DNA of 6,064 nt, taken from assembly GCF_003334385.1 (NCBI RefSeq), contig NZ_QOWN01000078.1; one strand, 5' to 3'. This DNA comes from Escherichia coli (GTDB lineage Bacteria; Pseudomonadota; Gammaproteobacteria; Enterobacterales; Enterobacteriaceae). The position numbers were made by a program. Below, one piece after another: positions 1-6,000 of the stretch. How positions within the stretch are numbered: the first letter of the stretch is position 1; every line of letters starts with the position of its first letter.

Positions 1-3000
1 CAACGTCGCTCAGTACAGAGGGATTTGAAAGCTGTTTCTCCATCTGGTTAAAGGCATTGATGTATGCCTCTTTGAACCGGGCAGCACGTTTACCCGTGAA
101 ACCCATAGCAAGAAACGCAAAACCGTCTCGTGTGATTTGATAGCAAGGGAGCTTGCGTGTACCACCGTTCGGTTGATTTACCGAAATCGATGTCTCCGCA
201 AAATTGCGGGCACAAAACTCAGGGGAACAATCCAGAGTGCGGATCTTTTTCAGCACATCGTCGTGACGCTTGGAGAAGAAGTTGGCAACAGCCAAAGAAG
301 TGGTAACGGCCTGGCCGTTGTCAATGGTGATTTCAGGTTGAGTGAGGGCTGGGATCGTAGCCATGATGGCAGCCTCCGTTGACAGTGAAAAACTTCCACC
401 ACCGGAAACGCCAATTTCACTGGTGGTGAACTGGACGGGGTTGGCGTAACCGGCGTCAACGGAGACCGGCGCACCTTTCGGTGCCCCCGCCCAGCCCACC
501 ATAATCTGGATGTGAGCAAATGCGGACGATAAAAAAGACGCTGGCGCGTCATACATCGCCGTTGACAATTTCAGGACGCCAATCCCGGCACCCGCTTTAT
601 AAGGTGCCTGAGCAGTGTAACGTCCCGGAATTGCAGAATCAATATGCAGGTGGTCCTTCACACTCAACAAAATCACGCCTGAATTTCCACAAAGGACTAA
701 AGCACTCATGCGGGTAGTCTTTGCGAAGATAGATAACGCGCTGTGTTTCTGGCTCCCAACGAATAACATGAACATAAAGTCCTCTTCCGTCACGAAACCA
801 GCGGTTAAGTTCCTGCACAACTCGCCCCCCACAGTCAGGTAAAGTTCTCTGTGGTTACTTACAGCCAGGTGATTTGGTAATCTGCATTCATGCCGTAACA
901 ACAGGTGTTCAGCGACGCTGACCACCAGCTGTTGCGACAAACGGTTATTTGCCGTTAAACTGTTCATGCGTTAGTTTCTCCACAGACACAAAACGCCACG
1001 ACGCCCGGAGCTGCACACTCGCGGGCGTCACTCTTTTCTGGAGCGCAAAAGATTTTGTAGACCAGTGCTGCATGCTCCTGGAGCTTCGAAATTGACAGAT
1101 ACAACTCATCATTAATTGCTGTCTGCTCGTGTGGCTCCACTACCCCATCTTCGATTGCCGAACGAATCTGCTTTGAGTAACTCCCGATCTGTTCGATGAC
1201 TTCCAGCAGGCGCTGGTTTATATCGGCGTTCTCTACTTCCTCAATTTCAGGAAGCGATACAAACACCCCACCAGCAGACTGTGCGACAGCATCCGCAATG
1301 TAGTGAGTGCCAGCCGCGCGCTGTAAAATCATTGCCCATCCCAGCGGGAAAATCTGATCGCCATCTGCACGAAGGCGGTTGAATAAAGCGTTCTCTGTTA
1401 CATCCAGCCACTCAGCAGCTTCAGCGTAACCCCCCGGCAACGCCGCGATAGTTTTTCTGACAGCTTTCACGTACCACTCAGGCTGTTTTTCCACTTTCCA
1501 GTGATGATTACCCACGGCTTACCTCCTGTTCCTGTGGTTTAAACCCATTCTGGTTTTGGCTAGATTGAAAACGTGCCGGATAAAGAATCTGCATTTCGCT
1601 GATTTCACCCTTAAAAAAATTGGCCAGACGTTCTGCAAGATCGATAGATGGAATTTGTTCCAGTCTTTCAATACGACTCAGCGTCGCTGGATTGACCTGA
1701 ACGCCCGCAGCAACATGCTGCAAAGTAAATCCGTGCGCCTTACGCACATTCCGTAATGGTGATTGCATATAACCTCCACATATTGCGTGATGAGCATATT
1801 ATTTCACGCAAATATTTTGCGCAAGTTGATTTGCTTAACGCGCAATAAAGAAATGTAATAAACGCATGAACATAGGAAACCGAGTCAGACAACTTCGCCA
1901 GGCGAAGAACATGAAAATCGCCGATCTCGCTGAAGCAATAGGAGTGGATGCGGCGAATATCTCACGCCTGGAAACAGGTAAGCAGAAACAATTCACTGAA
2001 CAAGCCCTGAGTAATATTGCCAGGAGCTTAGGTGTTGATATTGCTGATCTCTTTACCTCAGACGTCAAAAGTAATACTGTATGTAAAAACAGTATTAGTG
2101 AGGATGTTGCGCAGGTGAAGGATGTATTCCGTATTGAAATGCTGGATGTCAGTGCCAGTGCGGGAAATGGCCTTATCCAGGGCGGTGATGTCATTGATGT
2201 GATTCATGCCATTGAATACAGAACTGATAATGCTGTATCGATGTTTGGCGGACGGCCAGCCAATCACATTAAAGTTATCAACGTTCGTGGGGACAGTATG
2301 TGTCCAACCATTGAGCCAGGAGATCTCATCTTCGTTGATATCAGTATCAATCAGTTTGATGGGGATGGTATATATGTATTTGGTTTTGATGATAAAATTT
2401 ACGTCAAACGACTGCAAATGATACCTGATAAACTGCTGGTAATTTCTGATAATCAGATTTACCGCGAATGGGGAATTACCAGCGAAAACGAACATCGGTT
2501 TATGGTCTTTGGAAAGGTCTTAATCAGTCAGTCACAAACCCTTAAGCGACACAATTAACCCCTACCTCAACATCAATTAGCCACCAGAAGGTGGCTTTTC
2601 ATTACCCACCAAATTGCATATCTCGCAATAAAAACACTTGCATAATGCGCAACTTCATTTTATCTTTCTTTCCAGACATACAAACAAGGTACTAACAAAA
2701 TTTGGTTGTAACACGGCGTATGGCACATGCGTCGTTAGCGGTCTGGTGACGTTAAAGGGGACAATCCACTCCTTGCTCGGGCAAACAAACCAGGTAGCCG
2801 GAATGTGCAAGTCAATGATGATGCTGATAAGACGCCTAACCAGCGTGGCGATTCGGTTTGACGCCTGGGAAGAGACCAGGGTGCAACGATGAGGGCATTT
2901 ATGGAACCGCGACAAAGTGTGGTGCCGTAACTGGCTAAGTGCTCTCAGCGTTGTGGTGAATGCGCAGGCTGATGCGCGAAAGACATTGCAGCTATTGCGG

Positions 3001-6000
3001 AAAAGAGCTGTTCGGCGGGGCAATTAAACGCCCGTGAGAGTCTGAAATAACCGCAAGCCGGAGATCAGCATCGGTCACCACAGCAGCCACTGCTTTGGCG
3101 GTACCAGTTTGTACACTTGCTTCCGGCTGGTACCGCTATTTTTACAAAACAGAGAAGAGCATCACCGGACGACGGGCTCATAACCCAATCCACCCGGGCG
3201 GCTGCCACCGCAGGTGTTCTTCTCTGTTTTGTGGAGAAACCAACCGACCTTGCAGGGTCGATATGATGAGGAGCAGCAAAATGGCTAGCGAACGCAGTAC
3301 TGATGTGCAGGCATTTATCGGGGAGCTGGACGGCGGCGTATTTGAAACCAAAATCGGCGCAGTTCTCAGTGAAGTCGCTTCCGGTGTGATGAACACGAAA
3401 ACCAAAGGTAAGGTCTCGCTCAACCTGGAAATCGAACCGTTTGATGAGAACCGTGTGAAAATAAAACACAAACTCTCATATGTTCGCCCGACTAACCGCG
3501 GGAAAATTTCTGAAGAAGACACCACCGAAACGCCGATGTATGTCAATCGCGGTGGTCGCCTGACTATTCTACAGGAAGACCAGGGACAATTACTGACTCT
3601 TGCCGGTGAACCTGACGGAAAACTCCGCGCAGCAGGTCATTAATATCGTTCTTAATTAACTGATTATTTATCTCATCACTGAATATCTTAATATAGTGAG
3701 GACTTATTATGTCTCAGAACTTAGACGCAACCGCAATTAATCAAATCCATGCCCTTATTTCTGCTCAGGGTGTTAATGAAATTATCAGTAAGATTGGTGC
3801 CGATGCTGTGGCATTGCCTGAGAATTACCGCATTCATGATCTGGAAAAATTTAATTTAAATCGTTTCCGTTTCCGTGGTGCGCTTTCCACTGCCAGCATC
3901 GATGACTTTACCCGTTATTCTAAAGATCTTGCAGATGAAGGCACCCGCTGCTTTATCGATGCTGATAATATGCGTGCCGTCAGTGTGCTTAACCTGGGTA
4001 CTATTGATGAACCAGGTCACGCAGATAACACCGCCACTCTCAAACTGAAAAAGACAGCACCGTTCTCTGCCCTGTTGTCTGTTAACGGCGAGCGTAACTC
4101 CCAGAAATCACTGGCAGAATGGATTGAAGACTGGGCCGACTACCTTGTGGGCTTTGATGCTAATGGTGACGCCATTCAGGCAACAAAAGCGGCTGCGGCA
4201 ATTCGTAAAATCACGATTGAAGCAAACCAGACCGCTGATTTTGAAGATAATGACTTCAGCGGCAAACGCTCCCTGATGGAATCTGTCGAAGCGAAGACCA
4301 AAGACATTATGCCAGTGGCATTTGAATTTAAATGCGTTCCGTTTGAAGGTCTGAAAGAACGTCCGTTTAAATTACGCCTCAGCATTATCACTGGCGATCG
4401 TCCTGTACTGGTTCTGCGCATTATTCAGCTGGAAGCAGTGCAGGAAGAAATGGCTAACGAATTTCGTGATCTGCTTGTTGAGAAATTCAAGGACAGCAAA
4501 GTAGAAACCTTTATTGGTACTTTCACCGCCTGATTTCATTACTGCAAATGCCCCTGCGGGGGCATTTATGGAAACGTAATTGACTCAATAATCGCCGGAT
4601 GGTGAGGGCTTCCTTTTACCAGAATTCAGCGCGGTGCAGCGCATATACGTGGAGAACAAAATGTCATTTATTAAAACTTTTTCCGGGAAGCATTTTTATT
4701 ATGACAAGATAAATAAAGATGACATCGTTATTAACGATATCGCGGTTTCCCTTTCAAATATCTGTCGCTTTGCCGGTCATCTTTCTCACTTCTACAGCGT
4801 CGCCCAACATGCGGTGCTTTGCAGCCAGCTGGTGCCGCAGGAATTTGCTTTTGAAGCGTTAATGCATGATGCAACAGAAGCGTATTGCCAGGACATCCCA
4901 GCTCCACTGAAACGCCTTCTTCCTGACTATAAACGGATGGAAGAAAAAATAGACGCCGTAATCCGTGAGAAATACGGGTTACCTCCTGTTATGAGCACGC
5001 CAGTGAAATATGCCGATCTCATTATGCTGGCAACCGAACGTCGCGATCTCGGGCTTGATGATGGCTCTTTCTGGCCTGTACTGGAAGGTATCCCGGCGAC
5101 AGAGATGTTCAAAGTTATTCCACTGTCACCAGGCCATGCCTACGGGATGTTTATGGAACGTTTTAACGAGTTATCGGAGTTACGCAAATGCGCATGAATG
5201 TTTTCGAAATGGAAGGGTTTCTTCGCGGGAAATGTGTACCACGAGATCTGAAAGTGAATGAAACAAATGCTGAGTACCTGGTACGTAAATTCGATGCGCT
5301 TGAAGCTAAATGTGCGGCACTGGAAAACAAAATAATACCAGTGTCAGCTGAACTGCCGCCAGCAAATGAAAGTGTTCTGTTATTTGATGCTAACGGAGAA
5401 GGCTGGCTAATTGGCTGGCGTTCTCTCTGGTACACCTGGGGACAAAAAGAAACCGGAGAATGGCTGTGGACATTTCAGGTCGGGGACCTTGAAAACGTCA
5501 ATATCACTCACTGGGCAGTAATGCCGAAAGCACCGAAGAATAAAAAATGAGCGTGATAAAAACTCATACAGGAATTGTTATCACCCGAGACGGTCCGCAG
5601 GTAAAAAAACTGCACCAGACAAAGCGGATGTGGGTCGTCGGAAAAAACGAGTTTTACCACAAAGAAACCGGACGCCGCCACTTTGCAGAAAATACTCGCC
5701 GCCGACTGCTGATCGATACCATCAAGCCTATCGAGGTGAAGCATGTTTAAACAGAACGAAAAATCTATCGCTCAAATTGCTGAGTATATCCCGCGTGCGT
5801 GCCGGGATATGCAGTTGCAGGAAGCCAAAGCACGCCTGGAGAAAAAAATTGCGCTCTATATCGATGACGGCTGTGATGCCGCCGTTCTTAACGCGGCGTT
5901 CGCGCCAGCTCTTAACAGTCATACGCGAAAGTCTTTTTTTTCGTGCATCACAGCGCAGATCCGTAAAGGAGGCAACCAGTGAGCAACATTAACTATCAGG

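What the first reader, a model, noticed from the sequence alone, without database searches (positions are those of the whole stretch)
2653..3280. ORF-poor 0.6-kb leader between the OL/PL-like operators and the first early-left gene, where an N-type antiterminator gene would be expected
In lambda-like genomes the segment just downstream of PL carries nutL and the N gene. Here about 620 bp between the operator pair (2614-2652) and yfdP (3281) has no convincing protein-coding ORF: the two track ORFs (2638-2892 plus, 2655-3023 minus) overlap each other, start inside the operator region, lack ribosome-binding sites and have junk-like composition. The segment ends in a strong intrinsic terminator (3097-3143). 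This suggests a structured non-coding RNA: a cis-acting put-like antitermination RNA as in HK022, a prophage small RNA released at the terminator, or a riboregulatory leader controlling the downstream accessory operon. It contains one boxA-like motif (TGCTCTCA, 2939-2946) followed by a short GCGC/GCGC hairpin (2962-2977); that match is weak.
Basis: partly seen in the sequence, partly recalled or inferred. Interest (0 to 1): 0.7.

Follow-up and report, generated by a model that had tools for sequence, protein, structure and literature searches.

The report
Phage leader encoding tRNA-shaped small RNA
The gene-free 0.6 kb after the phage's early-left operators is real non-coding RNA built from tRNA-derived modules; its core is the published E. 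coli K1 small RNA sRNA-17, which belongs to a widespread, uncatalogued family of tRNA-shaped phage RNAs.

Summary
Window 2653-3280 is non-coding: substitutions show no third-codon-position bias in any candidate ORF, 22 of 25 indels break the frame, and the yfdP control gives 9/11/54. The window is 99% identical to lambdoid phage mEp460.

The stretch is a mosaic of RNA modules:
- Module A (2697-2880) also lies next to tRNA genes in P1 and phiV10-like phages.
- A leader hairpin spans 2884-2953.
- A tRNA-shaped RNA spans 2950-3084.
- An intrinsic terminator spans 3098-3143.
- A long hairpin (3139-3240) carries a 14-mer identical to the anticodon arm of E. coli initiator tRNA.

Positions 2949-3142 are the published sRNA-17 (RACE and Northern, E. 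coli K1). New here: its core belongs to a family with a strongly covarying 7-10 bp closing helix, near-invariant D-like and T-like hairpins with complementary loops, and a hypervariable 29-145 nt insert. Its 22-mer is exact in prophages of Beta- and Gammaproteobacteria. Rfam 15 has no match.

The put-like and nut-like readings are not supported. The reading of a small RNA released at the terminator is supported. The RNA's function is inferred, not shown.

The parts
2579..2596 (+). Terminator-like hairpin after the CI-like repressor gene (context). It is short and may be leaky.
   Evidence: Terminator scan: 7-bp stem, then TTTTC. SfV annotates the equivalent site as a terminator.
2614..2652 (.). 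Two operator-like sites, TTGC-N7-GCAA, at 2614-2628 and 2638-2652. The same motif occurs on the other side of the repressor gene.
   Evidence: Exact matches at 2614, 2638 and 1831. The consensus scan does not call the PL promoter itself.
2697..2880 (+). Module A: a conserved structured non-coding RNA segment of unknown function. The published 'sRNA-17 promoter' fragment (2700-2949) covers it.
   Evidence: About 80% identical to P1 71010-71194, directly after tRNA-Ile and before ban. About 83% identical to phiV10-like phages, where it leads into a tRNA-Arg. Three hairpins show compensatory changes, for example CCUGG/CCAGG, CCUCG/CGAGG and GCCGG/CCGGC. No promoter predicted. No Rfam hit.
2884..2953 (+). 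Leader hairpin 1: CAACG-AU-GAGGGCA ... UGCUCUC-AG-CGUUG.
   Evidence: The same module precedes a real tRNA-Arg in E. coli E7 and phiV10-like phages, ending ...CTCAGCGTT|G. The helix covaries among family members. In some loci it carries a tRNA T-arm relic, GGTTCGAATCC.
2950..3084 (+). tRNA-shaped RNA, the core of sRNA-17. Closing helix 2950-2958 with 3076-3084. Linker AAU. D-like hairpin 2962-2977. Variable structured domain 2980-3056. T-like hairpin 3057-3075. D-loop GCUGAU (2968-2973) is complementary to T-loop AUCAGC (3064-3069).
   Evidence: Covariance model R1 scores it 79.6 bits, E about 1e-19. On 71 distinct family members, 95.3% of cells pair, with 185 double-change cells against 52.9 +/- 5.2 in shuffles (0 of 500). 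On a pattern-independent closing helix the figures are 74 against 23. Not called by ARAGORN or Rfam.
2949..3142 (+). Published sRNA-17 transcript (193 nt by RACE): the tRNA-shaped core plus the terminator hairpin.
   Evidence: Primers and Northern probe from PMC7719688 Table S2 map here. The probe is antisense to the + strand.
3098..3143 (+). Intrinsic terminator: 10-bp G+C-rich stem (3098-3107 with 3127-3136), then UAUUUUU. It sets the 3' end of sRNA-17 and lies between PL and yfdP.
   Evidence: Sequence and fold. The published 3' end maps here. Conserved in SfV, where it is annotated as a terminator.
3139..3240 (+). Module C: a long, near-perfect hairpin of about 22 bp, homologous to the leader-hairpin module. 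Inside it, 3173-3186 (CGGGCUCAUAACCC) is identical to the anticodon stem-loop of E. coli initiator tRNA-fMet.
   Evidence: z = -5.8. Conserved with compensatory changes in ST64B, Flotzy and SfV. The 14-mer is identical to metY. The 5' arm ACAAAACAGAGAAGAGCA resembles the leader consensus ACACAACAGGTAAGAGCA.
3245..3283 (+). Small hairpin (3245-3260), Shine-Dalgarno GAGGAG (3268-3273) and the yfdP start codon (3281).
   Evidence: Sequence and fold. yfdP shows a coding substitution pattern and matches phrog_204.

Best explanation
Window 2653-3280 is a non-coding RNA locus at the start of the early-left transcription unit of an mEp460/SfV-type lambdoid phage. It is laid out like a decayed phage tRNA array:
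- module A;
- a leader hairpin;
- a tRNA-shaped RNA in the slot where related phages carry a real tRNA;
- an intrinsic terminator;
- a second leader-type hairpin that holds a copy of the initiator-tRNA anticodon arm;
- then the yfdP ribosome-binding site.

**Shown.**
- The stretch does not code for protein.
- The tRNA-shaped core plus terminator is the RNA published as sRNA-17.
- The core belongs to a large, horizontally spread family. Members have a 7-10 bp closing helix, a 4-bp D-like stem and a 5-bp T-like stem. Closing helix plus T-like stem make at least 12 stacked pairs, as in tRNA. The D and T loops can pair by six Watson-Crick pairs, and a hypervariable structured domain takes the place of the anticodon arm.

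**Inferred.**
- The RNA is cut out of the PL transcript, or in lysogens out of read-through from the repressor gene. It does not come from a promoter of its own. Its 3' end is set by the terminator and its 5' end by an endonuclease.
- The fold is a tRNA mimic recognised by host tRNA-handling machinery, with RNase P the first candidate.
- The mimic gives the phage a stable RNA, serving either as a processing or punctuation signal or as a decoy.
- The terminator doubles as an attenuator that keeps the yfdP-yfdT accessory operon low.
For: **Non-coding.** Codon-position and indel tests against the yfdP control. No PGAP gene. No PHROG family.

**Identity with sRNA-17.**

**Family and structure.**
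- An exact 27-mer occurs in more than 120 viral contigs with at least 15 insert classes.
- A gapped pattern gives 50 more contigs with more than 20 different closing helices.
- Covariation statistics support the fold.
- The P1 copy has compensatory changes in the D stem (GCAC/GUGC) and the T stem (GUCGG/CCGAC).
- The loop-loop pair covaries: GCUGAU/AUCAGC becomes ACUGAU/AUCAGU in L133 and L158.

**tRNA slot.**
- In E. coli E7 a tRNA-Arg follows the same module A and leader.
- tRNAs lie immediately beside the RNA in L011, L071, L074 and RCS47. All 13 tRNAs within 1 kb are on the same strand.

**Breadth.** The 22-mer is exact in 21 species-representative genomes of Gamma- and Betaproteobacteria. 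Some part of window 2560-3300 is present in 3111 of 5426 complete E. coli genomes.

**No own promoter.** The scan calls none. In another immunity type a PL-like promoter with an operator palindrome abuts the core directly.

**Terminator as gate.** Its position, together with the 96-fold rise in yfdP reads in the published deletion mutant, though see the evidence against.
Against: - The published 5' end (C2949) is 3 nt upstream of the site RNase P should choose (before U2952, measuring 12 bp from the T-like loop). So RNase P processing is not demonstrated and may be wrong.
- The T-like loop has 9 nt and lacks the T-Psi-C sequence. There is no anticodon loop. ARAGORN and the Rfam tRNA model do not call it.
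- An encoded ACC(A) tail follows the helix in only some members, and not in the window.
- Only 13 of 152 family copies have a tRNA within 1 kb.
- The D and T stems were fixed by my search patterns. Their covariation rests on a few model-found variants.
- Folding energy of the core is not better than shuffles.
- The published work reports ArcA binding to the module A fragment and trans effects with complementation. That fits a classical stand-alone sRNA.
- The yfdP rise may be a polar effect of a retained pKD3 cassette. No pCP20 step is mentioned. The cassette's orientation is from my memory of the vector.
Confidence: 0.6

Rival explanations
1. Stand-alone trans-acting sRNA, as published: sRNA-17 is transcribed from its own ArcA-repressed promoter inside 2700-2948 and base-pairs with host mRNAs to tune growth in blood.
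For: RACE, Northern, ArcA EMSA on the 2700-2949 fragment, differential expression in the mutant and complementation by qRT-PCR (PMC7719688).
Against: - No sigma-70-like promoter is predicted in 2460-3280 on the + strand.
- The 'promoter' fragment is itself a conserved structured RNA that sits beside tRNAs in P1 and phiV10-like phages.
- The most conserved parts of the RNA are identical in Pseudomonas, Achromobacter and Herbaspirillum prophages. That does not fit a seed matched to E. coli targets.
- The strongest 'targets', yfdP and yfdR, lie immediately downstream in cis of a probably retained cassette.
Confidence: 0.2
2. put-like cis-acting antitermination RNA: the nascent RNA binds RNA polymerase and carries it through the terminator at 3098-3143 and beyond, replacing N.
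For: The RNA lies just downstream of the operators and just upstream of a strong terminator, with no N-like gene in the window. In another immunity type the core starts a few bases after a PL-like promoter. One member lies downstream of a protein with CxxC motifs that I read, without testing, as Q-like.
Against: - No similarity to the HK022 nun-cI interval or to the rest of the fetched HK022 27.5-32.5 kb stretch.
- The RNA accumulates ending at that terminator.
- The family also occurs inside tRNA clusters, in a separate divergent transcription unit in phiV10-like phages, and in Ackermannviridae and Jilinvirus genomes.
- The closing helix joins the 5' and 3' ends as in tRNA, not two independent stem-loops.
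Confidence: 0.08
3. Inert debris: the region is a decaying tRNA array kept only by recent horizontal spread, and the RNA detected is a by-product with no function.
For: The leader modules carry relic T-arms and anticodon arms. Mosaic junctions fall at module borders, and truncated copies are fused to other genes. ARAGORN finds no tRNA.
Against: - The 22-mer is exact across Beta- and Gammaproteobacteria while the closing helix and insert differ completely.
- Many compensatory changes keep the helices.
- Inserts also keep their own helices by compensatory change: GCAG/CUGC becomes GCCG/CGGC, and CGGGG/CCCCG becomes CAGGG/CCCUG.
- For modules A and C this rival is harder to exclude.
Confidence: 0.1
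4. Small protein-coding genes (a degraded N or rex-like gene, or the annotated mEp460 gp36/gp37) occupy the region.
For: mEp460 annotates gp37 over window 2655-3023 (-) and gp36 over 3065-3208 (-). phrog_3651 and phrog_33599 match ORFs over the hairpin region.
Against: No third-position bias in any frame, and 22 of 25 indels shift the frame. PGAP calls nothing. The PHROG families lie over a hairpin conserved at the RNA level and probably collect the same spurious ORF calls.
Confidence: 0.02

Closest known systems
sRNA-17 of E. coli K1 RS218 (Front Microbiol 2020, PMC7719688)
   Same: It is the same RNA. All primers and the probe map to window 2949-3142 on the + strand with 0-1 mismatch. It lies in an mEp460-like prophage upstream of yfdP.
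   Different: The paper treats it as an isolated ArcA-controlled sRNA with no known relatives. It does not describe the tRNA-like fold, the family, the tRNA-slot context or the conserved RNA upstream.
tRNA genes in phage tRNA clusters and promoter-proximal slots
   Same: It occupies the position of a tRNA after the same leader. Its four-way layout has a 7-bp-or-longer closing helix stacked on a 5-bp T-like stem, a 4-bp D-like stem and interacting D and T loops. It is co-oriented with neighbouring tRNAs.
   Different: It has no anticodon loop. The T-like loop has 9 nt without T-Psi-C. The elbow would be made by a 6-bp Watson-Crick loop-loop helix. A 29-145 nt variable domain replaces the anticodon arm. 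tRNA finders do not call it.
Bacterial Y RNA-like YrlA and tmRNA (non-decoding tRNA mimics)
   Same: All are non-coding RNAs with a tRNA-like domain joined to a non-tRNA domain. M. smegmatis YrlA is cut by RNase P and receives CCA (PMC4201824).
   Different: In YrlA a stem-loop takes the acceptor-stem position, so the tRNA-like domain is not closed by the RNA's two ends as it is here; YrlA keeps canonical T and D loops, carries the motif GNCGAAN0-1G and sits next to rsr. None of this holds here. tmRNA has a canonical T arm and a tag reading frame; ARAGORN finds none, and the inserts evolve as RNA helices.
HK022 put RNAs
   Same: A promoter-proximal non-coding RNA in a lambdoid phage that lacks N.
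   Different: No sequence similarity, a different topology and a much wider genomic context.
Phage T4 stable RNAs 'species 1 and 2' (rnaC, rnaD) in the tRNA cluster (from my own knowledge, not checked here)
   Same: Stable non-tRNA RNAs co-transcribed with phage tRNAs, thought to be processed like tRNAs, with function still unknown.
   Different: No sequence relation was tested. T4 is not among the hits.
RNase III-sensitive hairpin in the lambda N leader (from my own knowledge)
   Same: Module C is a duplex of about 22 bp between the early-left promoter region and the first gene's ribosome-binding site.
   Different: It is not homologous. It carries an initiator-tRNA anticodon-arm copy. RNase III cleavage is untested.

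Membership tests
sRNA-17 (published E. coli K1 sRNA) | Sequence bounded by the published full-length primers and detected by the published Northern probe | tested here: met
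   full_R maps to 2949-2981 (0 mismatches), full_F to 3111-3142 (1 mismatch) and the probe to 3011-3060 (0 mismatches, antisense to the + strand).
tRNA-shaped phage RNA family defined here (model R1) | Closing helix, D-like hairpin GCGC-N8-GCGC, variable insert and T-like hairpin GCCGG-N9-CCGGC, scored by a covariance model | tested here: met
   Window 2949-3087 scores 79.6 bits, E about 1e-19, the only hit in the window. The window sequence was in the seed alignment, so the score is partly by construction. Model-found outsiders, such as P1 at 60.8 bits, show that the model generalises.
Canonical tRNA | Recognised by tRNA finders (cloverleaf with 7-nt anticodon loop and T-Psi-C loop) | tested here: not met
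   ARAGORN finds 0 genes in the window. There is no Rfam tRNA hit in 2653-3280 even at E <= 10.
Canonical tRNA | 7-bp acceptor stem stacked on a 5-bp T stem, 12 bp in all, with a D stem and a D-loop/T-loop contact | tested here: met
   Closing helix of at least 7 bp in 46 of 50 members. The 5-bp T-like stem directly abuts it. The 4-bp D-like stem and complementary loops are present.
Canonical tRNA | RNase P processing at +1 and a 3' NCCA end | tested here: inconclusive
   ACC or CCA follows the helix in some members but not in the window. The published 5' end is 3 nt upstream of the predicted RNase P site. There is no enzymology.
HK022 put antiterminator RNA | Sequence or structural relation to putL/putR | tested here: not met
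   blastn-short of window 2600-3290 against HK022 27500-32500 gives only 10-11-nt matches, E >= 0.66. No curated put model was available.
HK022 put antiterminator RNA | Acts in cis on RNA polymerase to suppress downstream terminators | not testable with these tools
   This needs read-through assays. The in vivo 3' end at the terminator argues against it.
Lambda-type nut site | Single-stranded boxA (CGCUCUUA or UGCUCUUUA) followed by a boxB hairpin with a 5-nt loop, plus an N gene | tested here: not met
   TGCTCTCA is an imperfect boxA match and forms one strand of a covarying helix. The hairpin loop has 6-8 nt and is invariant in unrelated phages. No ORF between the operators and yfdP behaves as a gene.
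YrlA / bacterial Y RNA | GNCGAAN0-1G Ro-binding motif, canonical T and D loops, adjacency to rsr | tested here: not met
   The features come from PMC4201824. The motif is absent from the conserved core by inspection. No rsr is in the window.
tmRNA | tRNA-like domain with a canonical T arm plus a tag reading frame | tested here: not met
   ARAGORN finds no tmRNA. Open frames in the inserts are not conserved, and differences between homologues are helix-compensating.
Intrinsic (Rho-independent) terminator | G+C-rich hairpin followed by a U tract, with the RNA 3' end there | tested here: met
   10-bp stem 3098-3107 with 3127-3136, then UAUUUUU. The published 3' end lies at about 3141-3142.

The most novel reading that the evidence does not exclude
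sRNA-17 is the first experimentally seen member of an unrecognised class of phage-borne tRNA mimics. Members share an almost invariant 'elbow' made by Watson-Crick pairing of D-like and T-like loops, a freely covarying acceptor-like helix and an exchangeable structured cargo domain. They spread as cassettes among phages of Beta- and Gammaproteobacteria. They would act on a universal host tRNA-handling or tRNA-targeting component: RNase P, the CCA-adding enzyme, the ribosome or an anticodon-nuclease defence. The initiator-tRNA anticodon-arm copies in the neighbouring hairpins would belong to the same strategy.
Probability: 0.25. Interest if true: 0.85.

Novelty: new variant of a known kind. Interest (0 to 1): 0.62.

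Why it matters
- The RNA was published as a strain-specific virulence sRNA of neonatal-meningitis E. coli. Here it proves to be one copy of a family found in many phages, including the textbook phage P1, and in prophages from Escherichia to Pseudomonas and Herbaspirillum. Some part of this leader is present in more than half of complete E. coli genomes.
- A 22-nt core is kept letter-perfect across two proteobacterial classes while everything around it changes. That points to an interaction with a conserved host machine.
- The family gives a defined object for asking why phages carry tRNA-like genes beyond codon supply, which is a long-standing question.
- The result calls for re-reading the published phenotypes. 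The 'promoter' is conserved RNA, and the strongest 'targets' are the cis-downstream genes.
- Several annotated phage ORFs are probably spurious calls over RNA genes: mEp460 gp36 and gp37, P1 plp and upl, and two PHROG families.

Tried and rejected
- **Rfam 15:** searched at E <= 10 on the window and at gathering score on 13 related loci. Nothing covers modules A, B or C; only tRNAs, C4, isrK and int-alpA appear elsewhere.
- **ARAGORN:** no tRNA or tmRNA in the window.
- **Literature, exact sequence strings:** no paper.
- **Literature, keyword searches** for phage tRNA-like RNAs: nothing matching. The Pas sRNA preprint concerns Escherichia/Shigella-restricted sRNAs. I could not compare sequences.
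- **RS218 genome:** not in the E. coli collection, so sRNA-17 was mapped through the primers instead.
- **Hammerhead-like core** (CUGAUG...GAAA): rejected. GAAA is not conserved across insert classes and no stem II exists.
- **tmRNA-like tag frame in inserts:** rejected.
- **YrlA:** rejected.
- **HK022 put:** rejected.
- **boxA/nut:** rejected as a general feature.
- **Protein coding:** rejected.
- **Strict tRNA-cluster association:** only partly true, 13 of 152 copies.
- **A consistently linked protein gene:** none found. The contexts are heterogeneous.
- **Thermodynamic stability as evidence** for modules A and B: not significant.
- **Global fold of module A:** not resolved. Only three local hairpins have covariation support, and the long-range pairs are invariant and so uninformative.

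Full report
**Setting.** The window is 99% identical to lambdoid phage mEp460 and to many E. coli prophages. The layout is as follows:
- On the minus strand lie a Rha-type antirepressor region, preceded by C4 and isrK RNA matches, then a ymfL-like gene and a cro-like gene.
- On the plus strand lies a CI-like S24 repressor (1866-2558), then a short terminator (2579-2596).
- Two operator-like sites TTGC-N7-GCAA follow at 2614-2628 and 2638-2652.
- The ORF-poor stretch comes next, then yfdP (3281), yfdQ, yfdR and further accessory genes.

Some part of 2560-3300 is present in 3111 of 5426 complete E. coli genomes, and 798 genomes hold at least 80% of it.

**Is it non-coding?** Yes.
- PHROGs has no family for the three ORFs in 2638-3027.
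- In 115 distinct homologous sequences the substitutions are evenly spread over codon positions in all five candidate frames.
- Of 25 indels, 22 are not multiples of three. yfdP, analysed the same way, gives 9/11/54.
- The mEp460 annotations gp36 and gp37, and PHROGs 3651 and 33599, lie over RNA hairpins and are best read as spurious ORF calls.

**The stretch is a mosaic.** BLAST against phages and E. coli shows that sub-segments travel separately.
- Segment 2697-2880 (module A) is about 80% identical to phage P1 71010-71194. That P1 stretch is the spacer directly after tRNA-Ile and before ban, inside the C1-controlled ban operon.
- Segment 2713-2956 is about 83% identical to a stretch in phiV10/TL-2011b-type phages and in E. 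coli E7. There it forms a separate unit that runs into a real tRNA-Arg.
- Segment 2949-3085 is 97% identical to a stretch just after tRNA-Thr in P1-like RCS47.
- A 31-mer (2949-2979) is identical in unrelated phages: Taipeivirus UPM2146, Jilinvirus ep3 and Uetakevirus Tyrion.

- The paper's sRNA-17 is 193 nt, mapped by 5'/3' RACE and seen on a Northern. It lies in an mEp460-like prophage.
- The RS218 genome is not in the collection, so I mapped the primers.
- The full-length primers bound 2949-3142. The Northern probe is antisense to the + strand at 3011-3060. The 'promoter' fragment is 2700-2949. The deletion removed 2975-3092.
- sRNA-17 is therefore the + strand RNA from just before the GCGC hairpin to the U tract of the terminator.
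- The authors found no Rfam homologue, and I find none in Rfam 15.

**The core belongs to a large family with a tRNA-like layout.**
- It is followed by at least 15 unrelated insert classes of 38-145 nt, then by GCCGGAGATCAGCACCGGCCACCACA.
- A gapped pattern that left the helix ends and both loops free returned 50 contigs from very different metagenomes.

In these sequences:
- The sequence before GAATGCGC and the sequence after the second CCGG always pair, yet differ freely. Examples are GAGAGUG/CACUCUC, GGGGAGG/CCUCCCC, GUGAUCUG/CAGAUCAC and GGCGGUG/CACCGCC.
- The helix is 7-10 bp in 46 of 50 distinct members.
- On an insert-trimmed alignment of 33 members, 94.9% of cells pair, and 74 cells have changes on both sides against 23.0 +/- 3.5 in shuffles (0 of 500). 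Slid controls fall to about 30-46% paired.

A covariance model (R1) found 77 copies in 75 loci.
- On its alignment, 95.3% of cells pair, with 185 double-change cells against 52.9 +/- 5.2 (0 of 500). That alignment is fitted to the model.
- The D-like and T-like stems were fixed by my patterns. Model-found variants supply the test.
- The P1 copy (69816-69921, 60.8 bits) has GCAC/GUGC instead of GCGC/GCGC, and GUCGG/CCGAC instead of GCCGG/CCGGC.
- The D-loop GCUGAU is complementary to the T-loop AUCAGC. In L133 and L158 the pair becomes ACUGAU/AUCAGU.

The layout is this: a closing helix of at least 7 bp, a 3-nt linker, a 4-bp D-like stem with an 8-nt loop, 2 nt, the variable domain, then a 5-bp T-like stem with a 9-nt loop abutting the 3' strand of the closing helix. 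That gives the 7 + 5 stacking and the four-way junction of a tRNA, with the elbow made by a 6-bp loop-loop helix.

It is not a decoding tRNA. It has no anticodon loop and no T-Psi-C loop, and tRNA finders do not call it. The variable domains are themselves structured and evolve by compensatory change. Some Pseudomonas and Achromobacter members hold a canonical GGTTCGAGTCC arm inside the insert.

**Distribution and context.**
- The exact 22-mer GAATGCGCAGGCTGATGCGCGA is found in 21 species-representative genomes. They are eight Pseudomonas, Chromobacterium, Aeromonas, Achromobacter, Janthinobacterium, Rhodoferax, Roseateles, Agitococcus, Herbaspirillum, Herminiimonas, Escherichia, Enterobacter, Pantoea, Pluralibacter and Serratia.
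- Context varies. Copies lie after CI-like repressors as here, after a protein with CxxC motifs that I read, without testing, as Q-like, near terminase or lysozyme genes (likewise read from the sequences, not tested), and inside tRNA clusters.
- Only 13 of 152 copies have a tRNA within 1 kb, but all 13 are co-oriented and 12 lie within 300 nt.
- In another immunity type, a promoter TTGACA-17-TACATT embedded in an operator palindrome abuts the core directly. There the RNA is the first thing made from the early-left promoter.
- The slot is exchangeable. The commonest partner of module A (68 of 115 sequences) keeps the same closing helix GUUGUGGU/ACCACAAC and the same terminator, but has different internal content. 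SfV, ST64B and a second P1 copy carry a related subtype.

**Flanking modules.**
- Module A has three hairpins with compensatory changes. Its predicted long-range pairs are invariant and so uninformative, and its overall fold and function remain open.
- The hairpin between module A and the core (2884-2953) is the same 'leader' that precedes tRNA-Arg in E7. In P1, L011 and L286 the equivalent module carries a T-arm relic.
- After the terminator, 3139-3240 forms a long, near-perfect hairpin (z -5.8). It is conserved with compensatory changes in ST64B, Flotzy and SfV.
- Its arms resemble the leader consensus. Its interior contains CGGGCUCAUAACCC (3173-3186), identical to the anticodon stem-loop of E. 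coli initiator tRNA, including the three G-C pairs.
- CAU-loop hairpins of this kind recur in leader modules of P1, L073 and L074.
- The whole leader therefore looks like a tRNA array in which most members have been remodelled.

**How it most likely works.** Four things are shown: the stretch is non-coding, an RNA accumulates from about 2949 to about 3142, the terminator is a terminator, and the core is under selection as an RNA. The rest is inferred.
- No promoter is predicted in 2460-3280, and the published 'promoter' is conserved RNA. The RNA is therefore probably cut from the PL transcript or, in lysogens, from read-through of the weak repressor-gene terminator.
- The fold has the features RNase P measures. 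But the published 5' end is 3 nt upstream of the expected site, and encoded ACC(A) tails are seen in only part of the family. RNase P is a candidate, not a finding.
- The terminator lies between the operators and yfdP, so it should limit expression of the accessory operon.
- The 96-fold rise in yfdP reads in the published mutant fits that reading. It equally fits transcription from a retained pKD3 cassette.
- The letter-perfect conservation of the elbow across two proteobacterial classes suggests a conserved host partner. Which partner it is remains unknown.

**Comparison and novelty.** The put and nut readings fail their tests. YrlA and tmRNA are the closest known non-decoding tRNA mimics but differ in topology and motifs. 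The instance in the window is already published as sRNA-17. I could not find the family, its fold, its breadth or its tRNA-slot context in Rfam 15 or in the searchable literature. Subscription journals were not searchable, so prior description cannot be excluded.

Noticed in passing
window 419-620 (- strand): Rfam matches above gathering score to C4 antisense RNA (419-506, 81.4 bits) and isrK (531-607, 62.2 bits), plus a weak c4-a1b1 target match (568-620). They lie upstream of the Rha/antirepressor gene. This is a P1/P7 immI-type antisense control of an antirepressor inside a lambdoid immunity region. The same pair occurs in L031.
   Followed up: no
L004 (phage P1 NC_005856) 3817-3922 and 4078-4205, i.e. 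record 69816-69921 and 70077-70204: P1 carries family members on the ban-operon strand. The first lies under the annotated opposite-strand ORFs plp and upl, and the second lies between upl and tciA. These hypothetical ORFs may be mis-calls over RNA genes.
   Followed up: partly
window 3173-3186; also the P1, L073 and L074 leader modules: A 14-mer identical to the initiator tRNA-fMet anticodon stem-loop (GGG/CCC stem, CUCAUAA loop) sits inside the long hairpin just upstream of yfdP. Similar CAU-loop hairpins recur in related leader modules. It could be a relic or a decoy for factors that read the initiator anticodon arm.
   Followed up: partly
L192 and 67 similar sequences; L274 (SfV) 1357-1484; L272 (ST64B) 994-1120: The slot between the leader hairpin and the terminator holds alternative cassettes with the same closing helix (GUUGUGGU/ACCACAAC) but different interiors. 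This suggests cassette exchange by recombination at the conserved flanks.
   Followed up: partly
L033, L024, L029, L056, L114 (viral contigs): Copies of the core are truncated after ...GGGGCAATTAAACGCCCGT and fused to a ribosome-binding site and an ORF, ATGAAAGTCCAGATTTTAAAC..., which matches SfV orf33. A recombination junction lies inside the RNA.
   Followed up: no
L276, L288 (Pseudomonas), L280 (Achromobacter): In some members the variable domain contains a canonical tRNA T-arm (CCGGTTCGAGTCCGG or CTGGTTCGAGTCCAG) in addition to the family's own T-like hairpin.
   Followed up: no
window 2975-3092, from the published mutant: The published sRNA-17 deletion used pKD3 with no flip-out step mentioned. 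Its strongest 'regulated' genes are yfdP and yfdR, immediately downstream. A polar cassette effect is a simpler reading than trans regulation.
   Followed up: partly
window 3065-3208 (-) and 3117-3266 (+): PHROG families 3651 and 33599 match ORFs that overlap the terminator and the conserved long hairpin. These families probably consist of spurious ORF calls over RNA structure.
   Followed up: partly
L025 1183-1245: An int-alpA RNA motif (Rfam RF02996, 42.2 bits) lies directly downstream of a family member in one viral contig.
   Followed up: no
upstream of family copies in enterobacterial phages, e.g. L020, L007, L052, L054: The 3' strand of the leader hairpin often reads UGCUCUUUC/A, close to rrn boxA. 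GCTCTT occurs in 14 of 83 contexts against 0.7% background. It may help Nus-factor loading on an untranslated transcript, or it may be coincidence within one lineage.
   Followed up: partly
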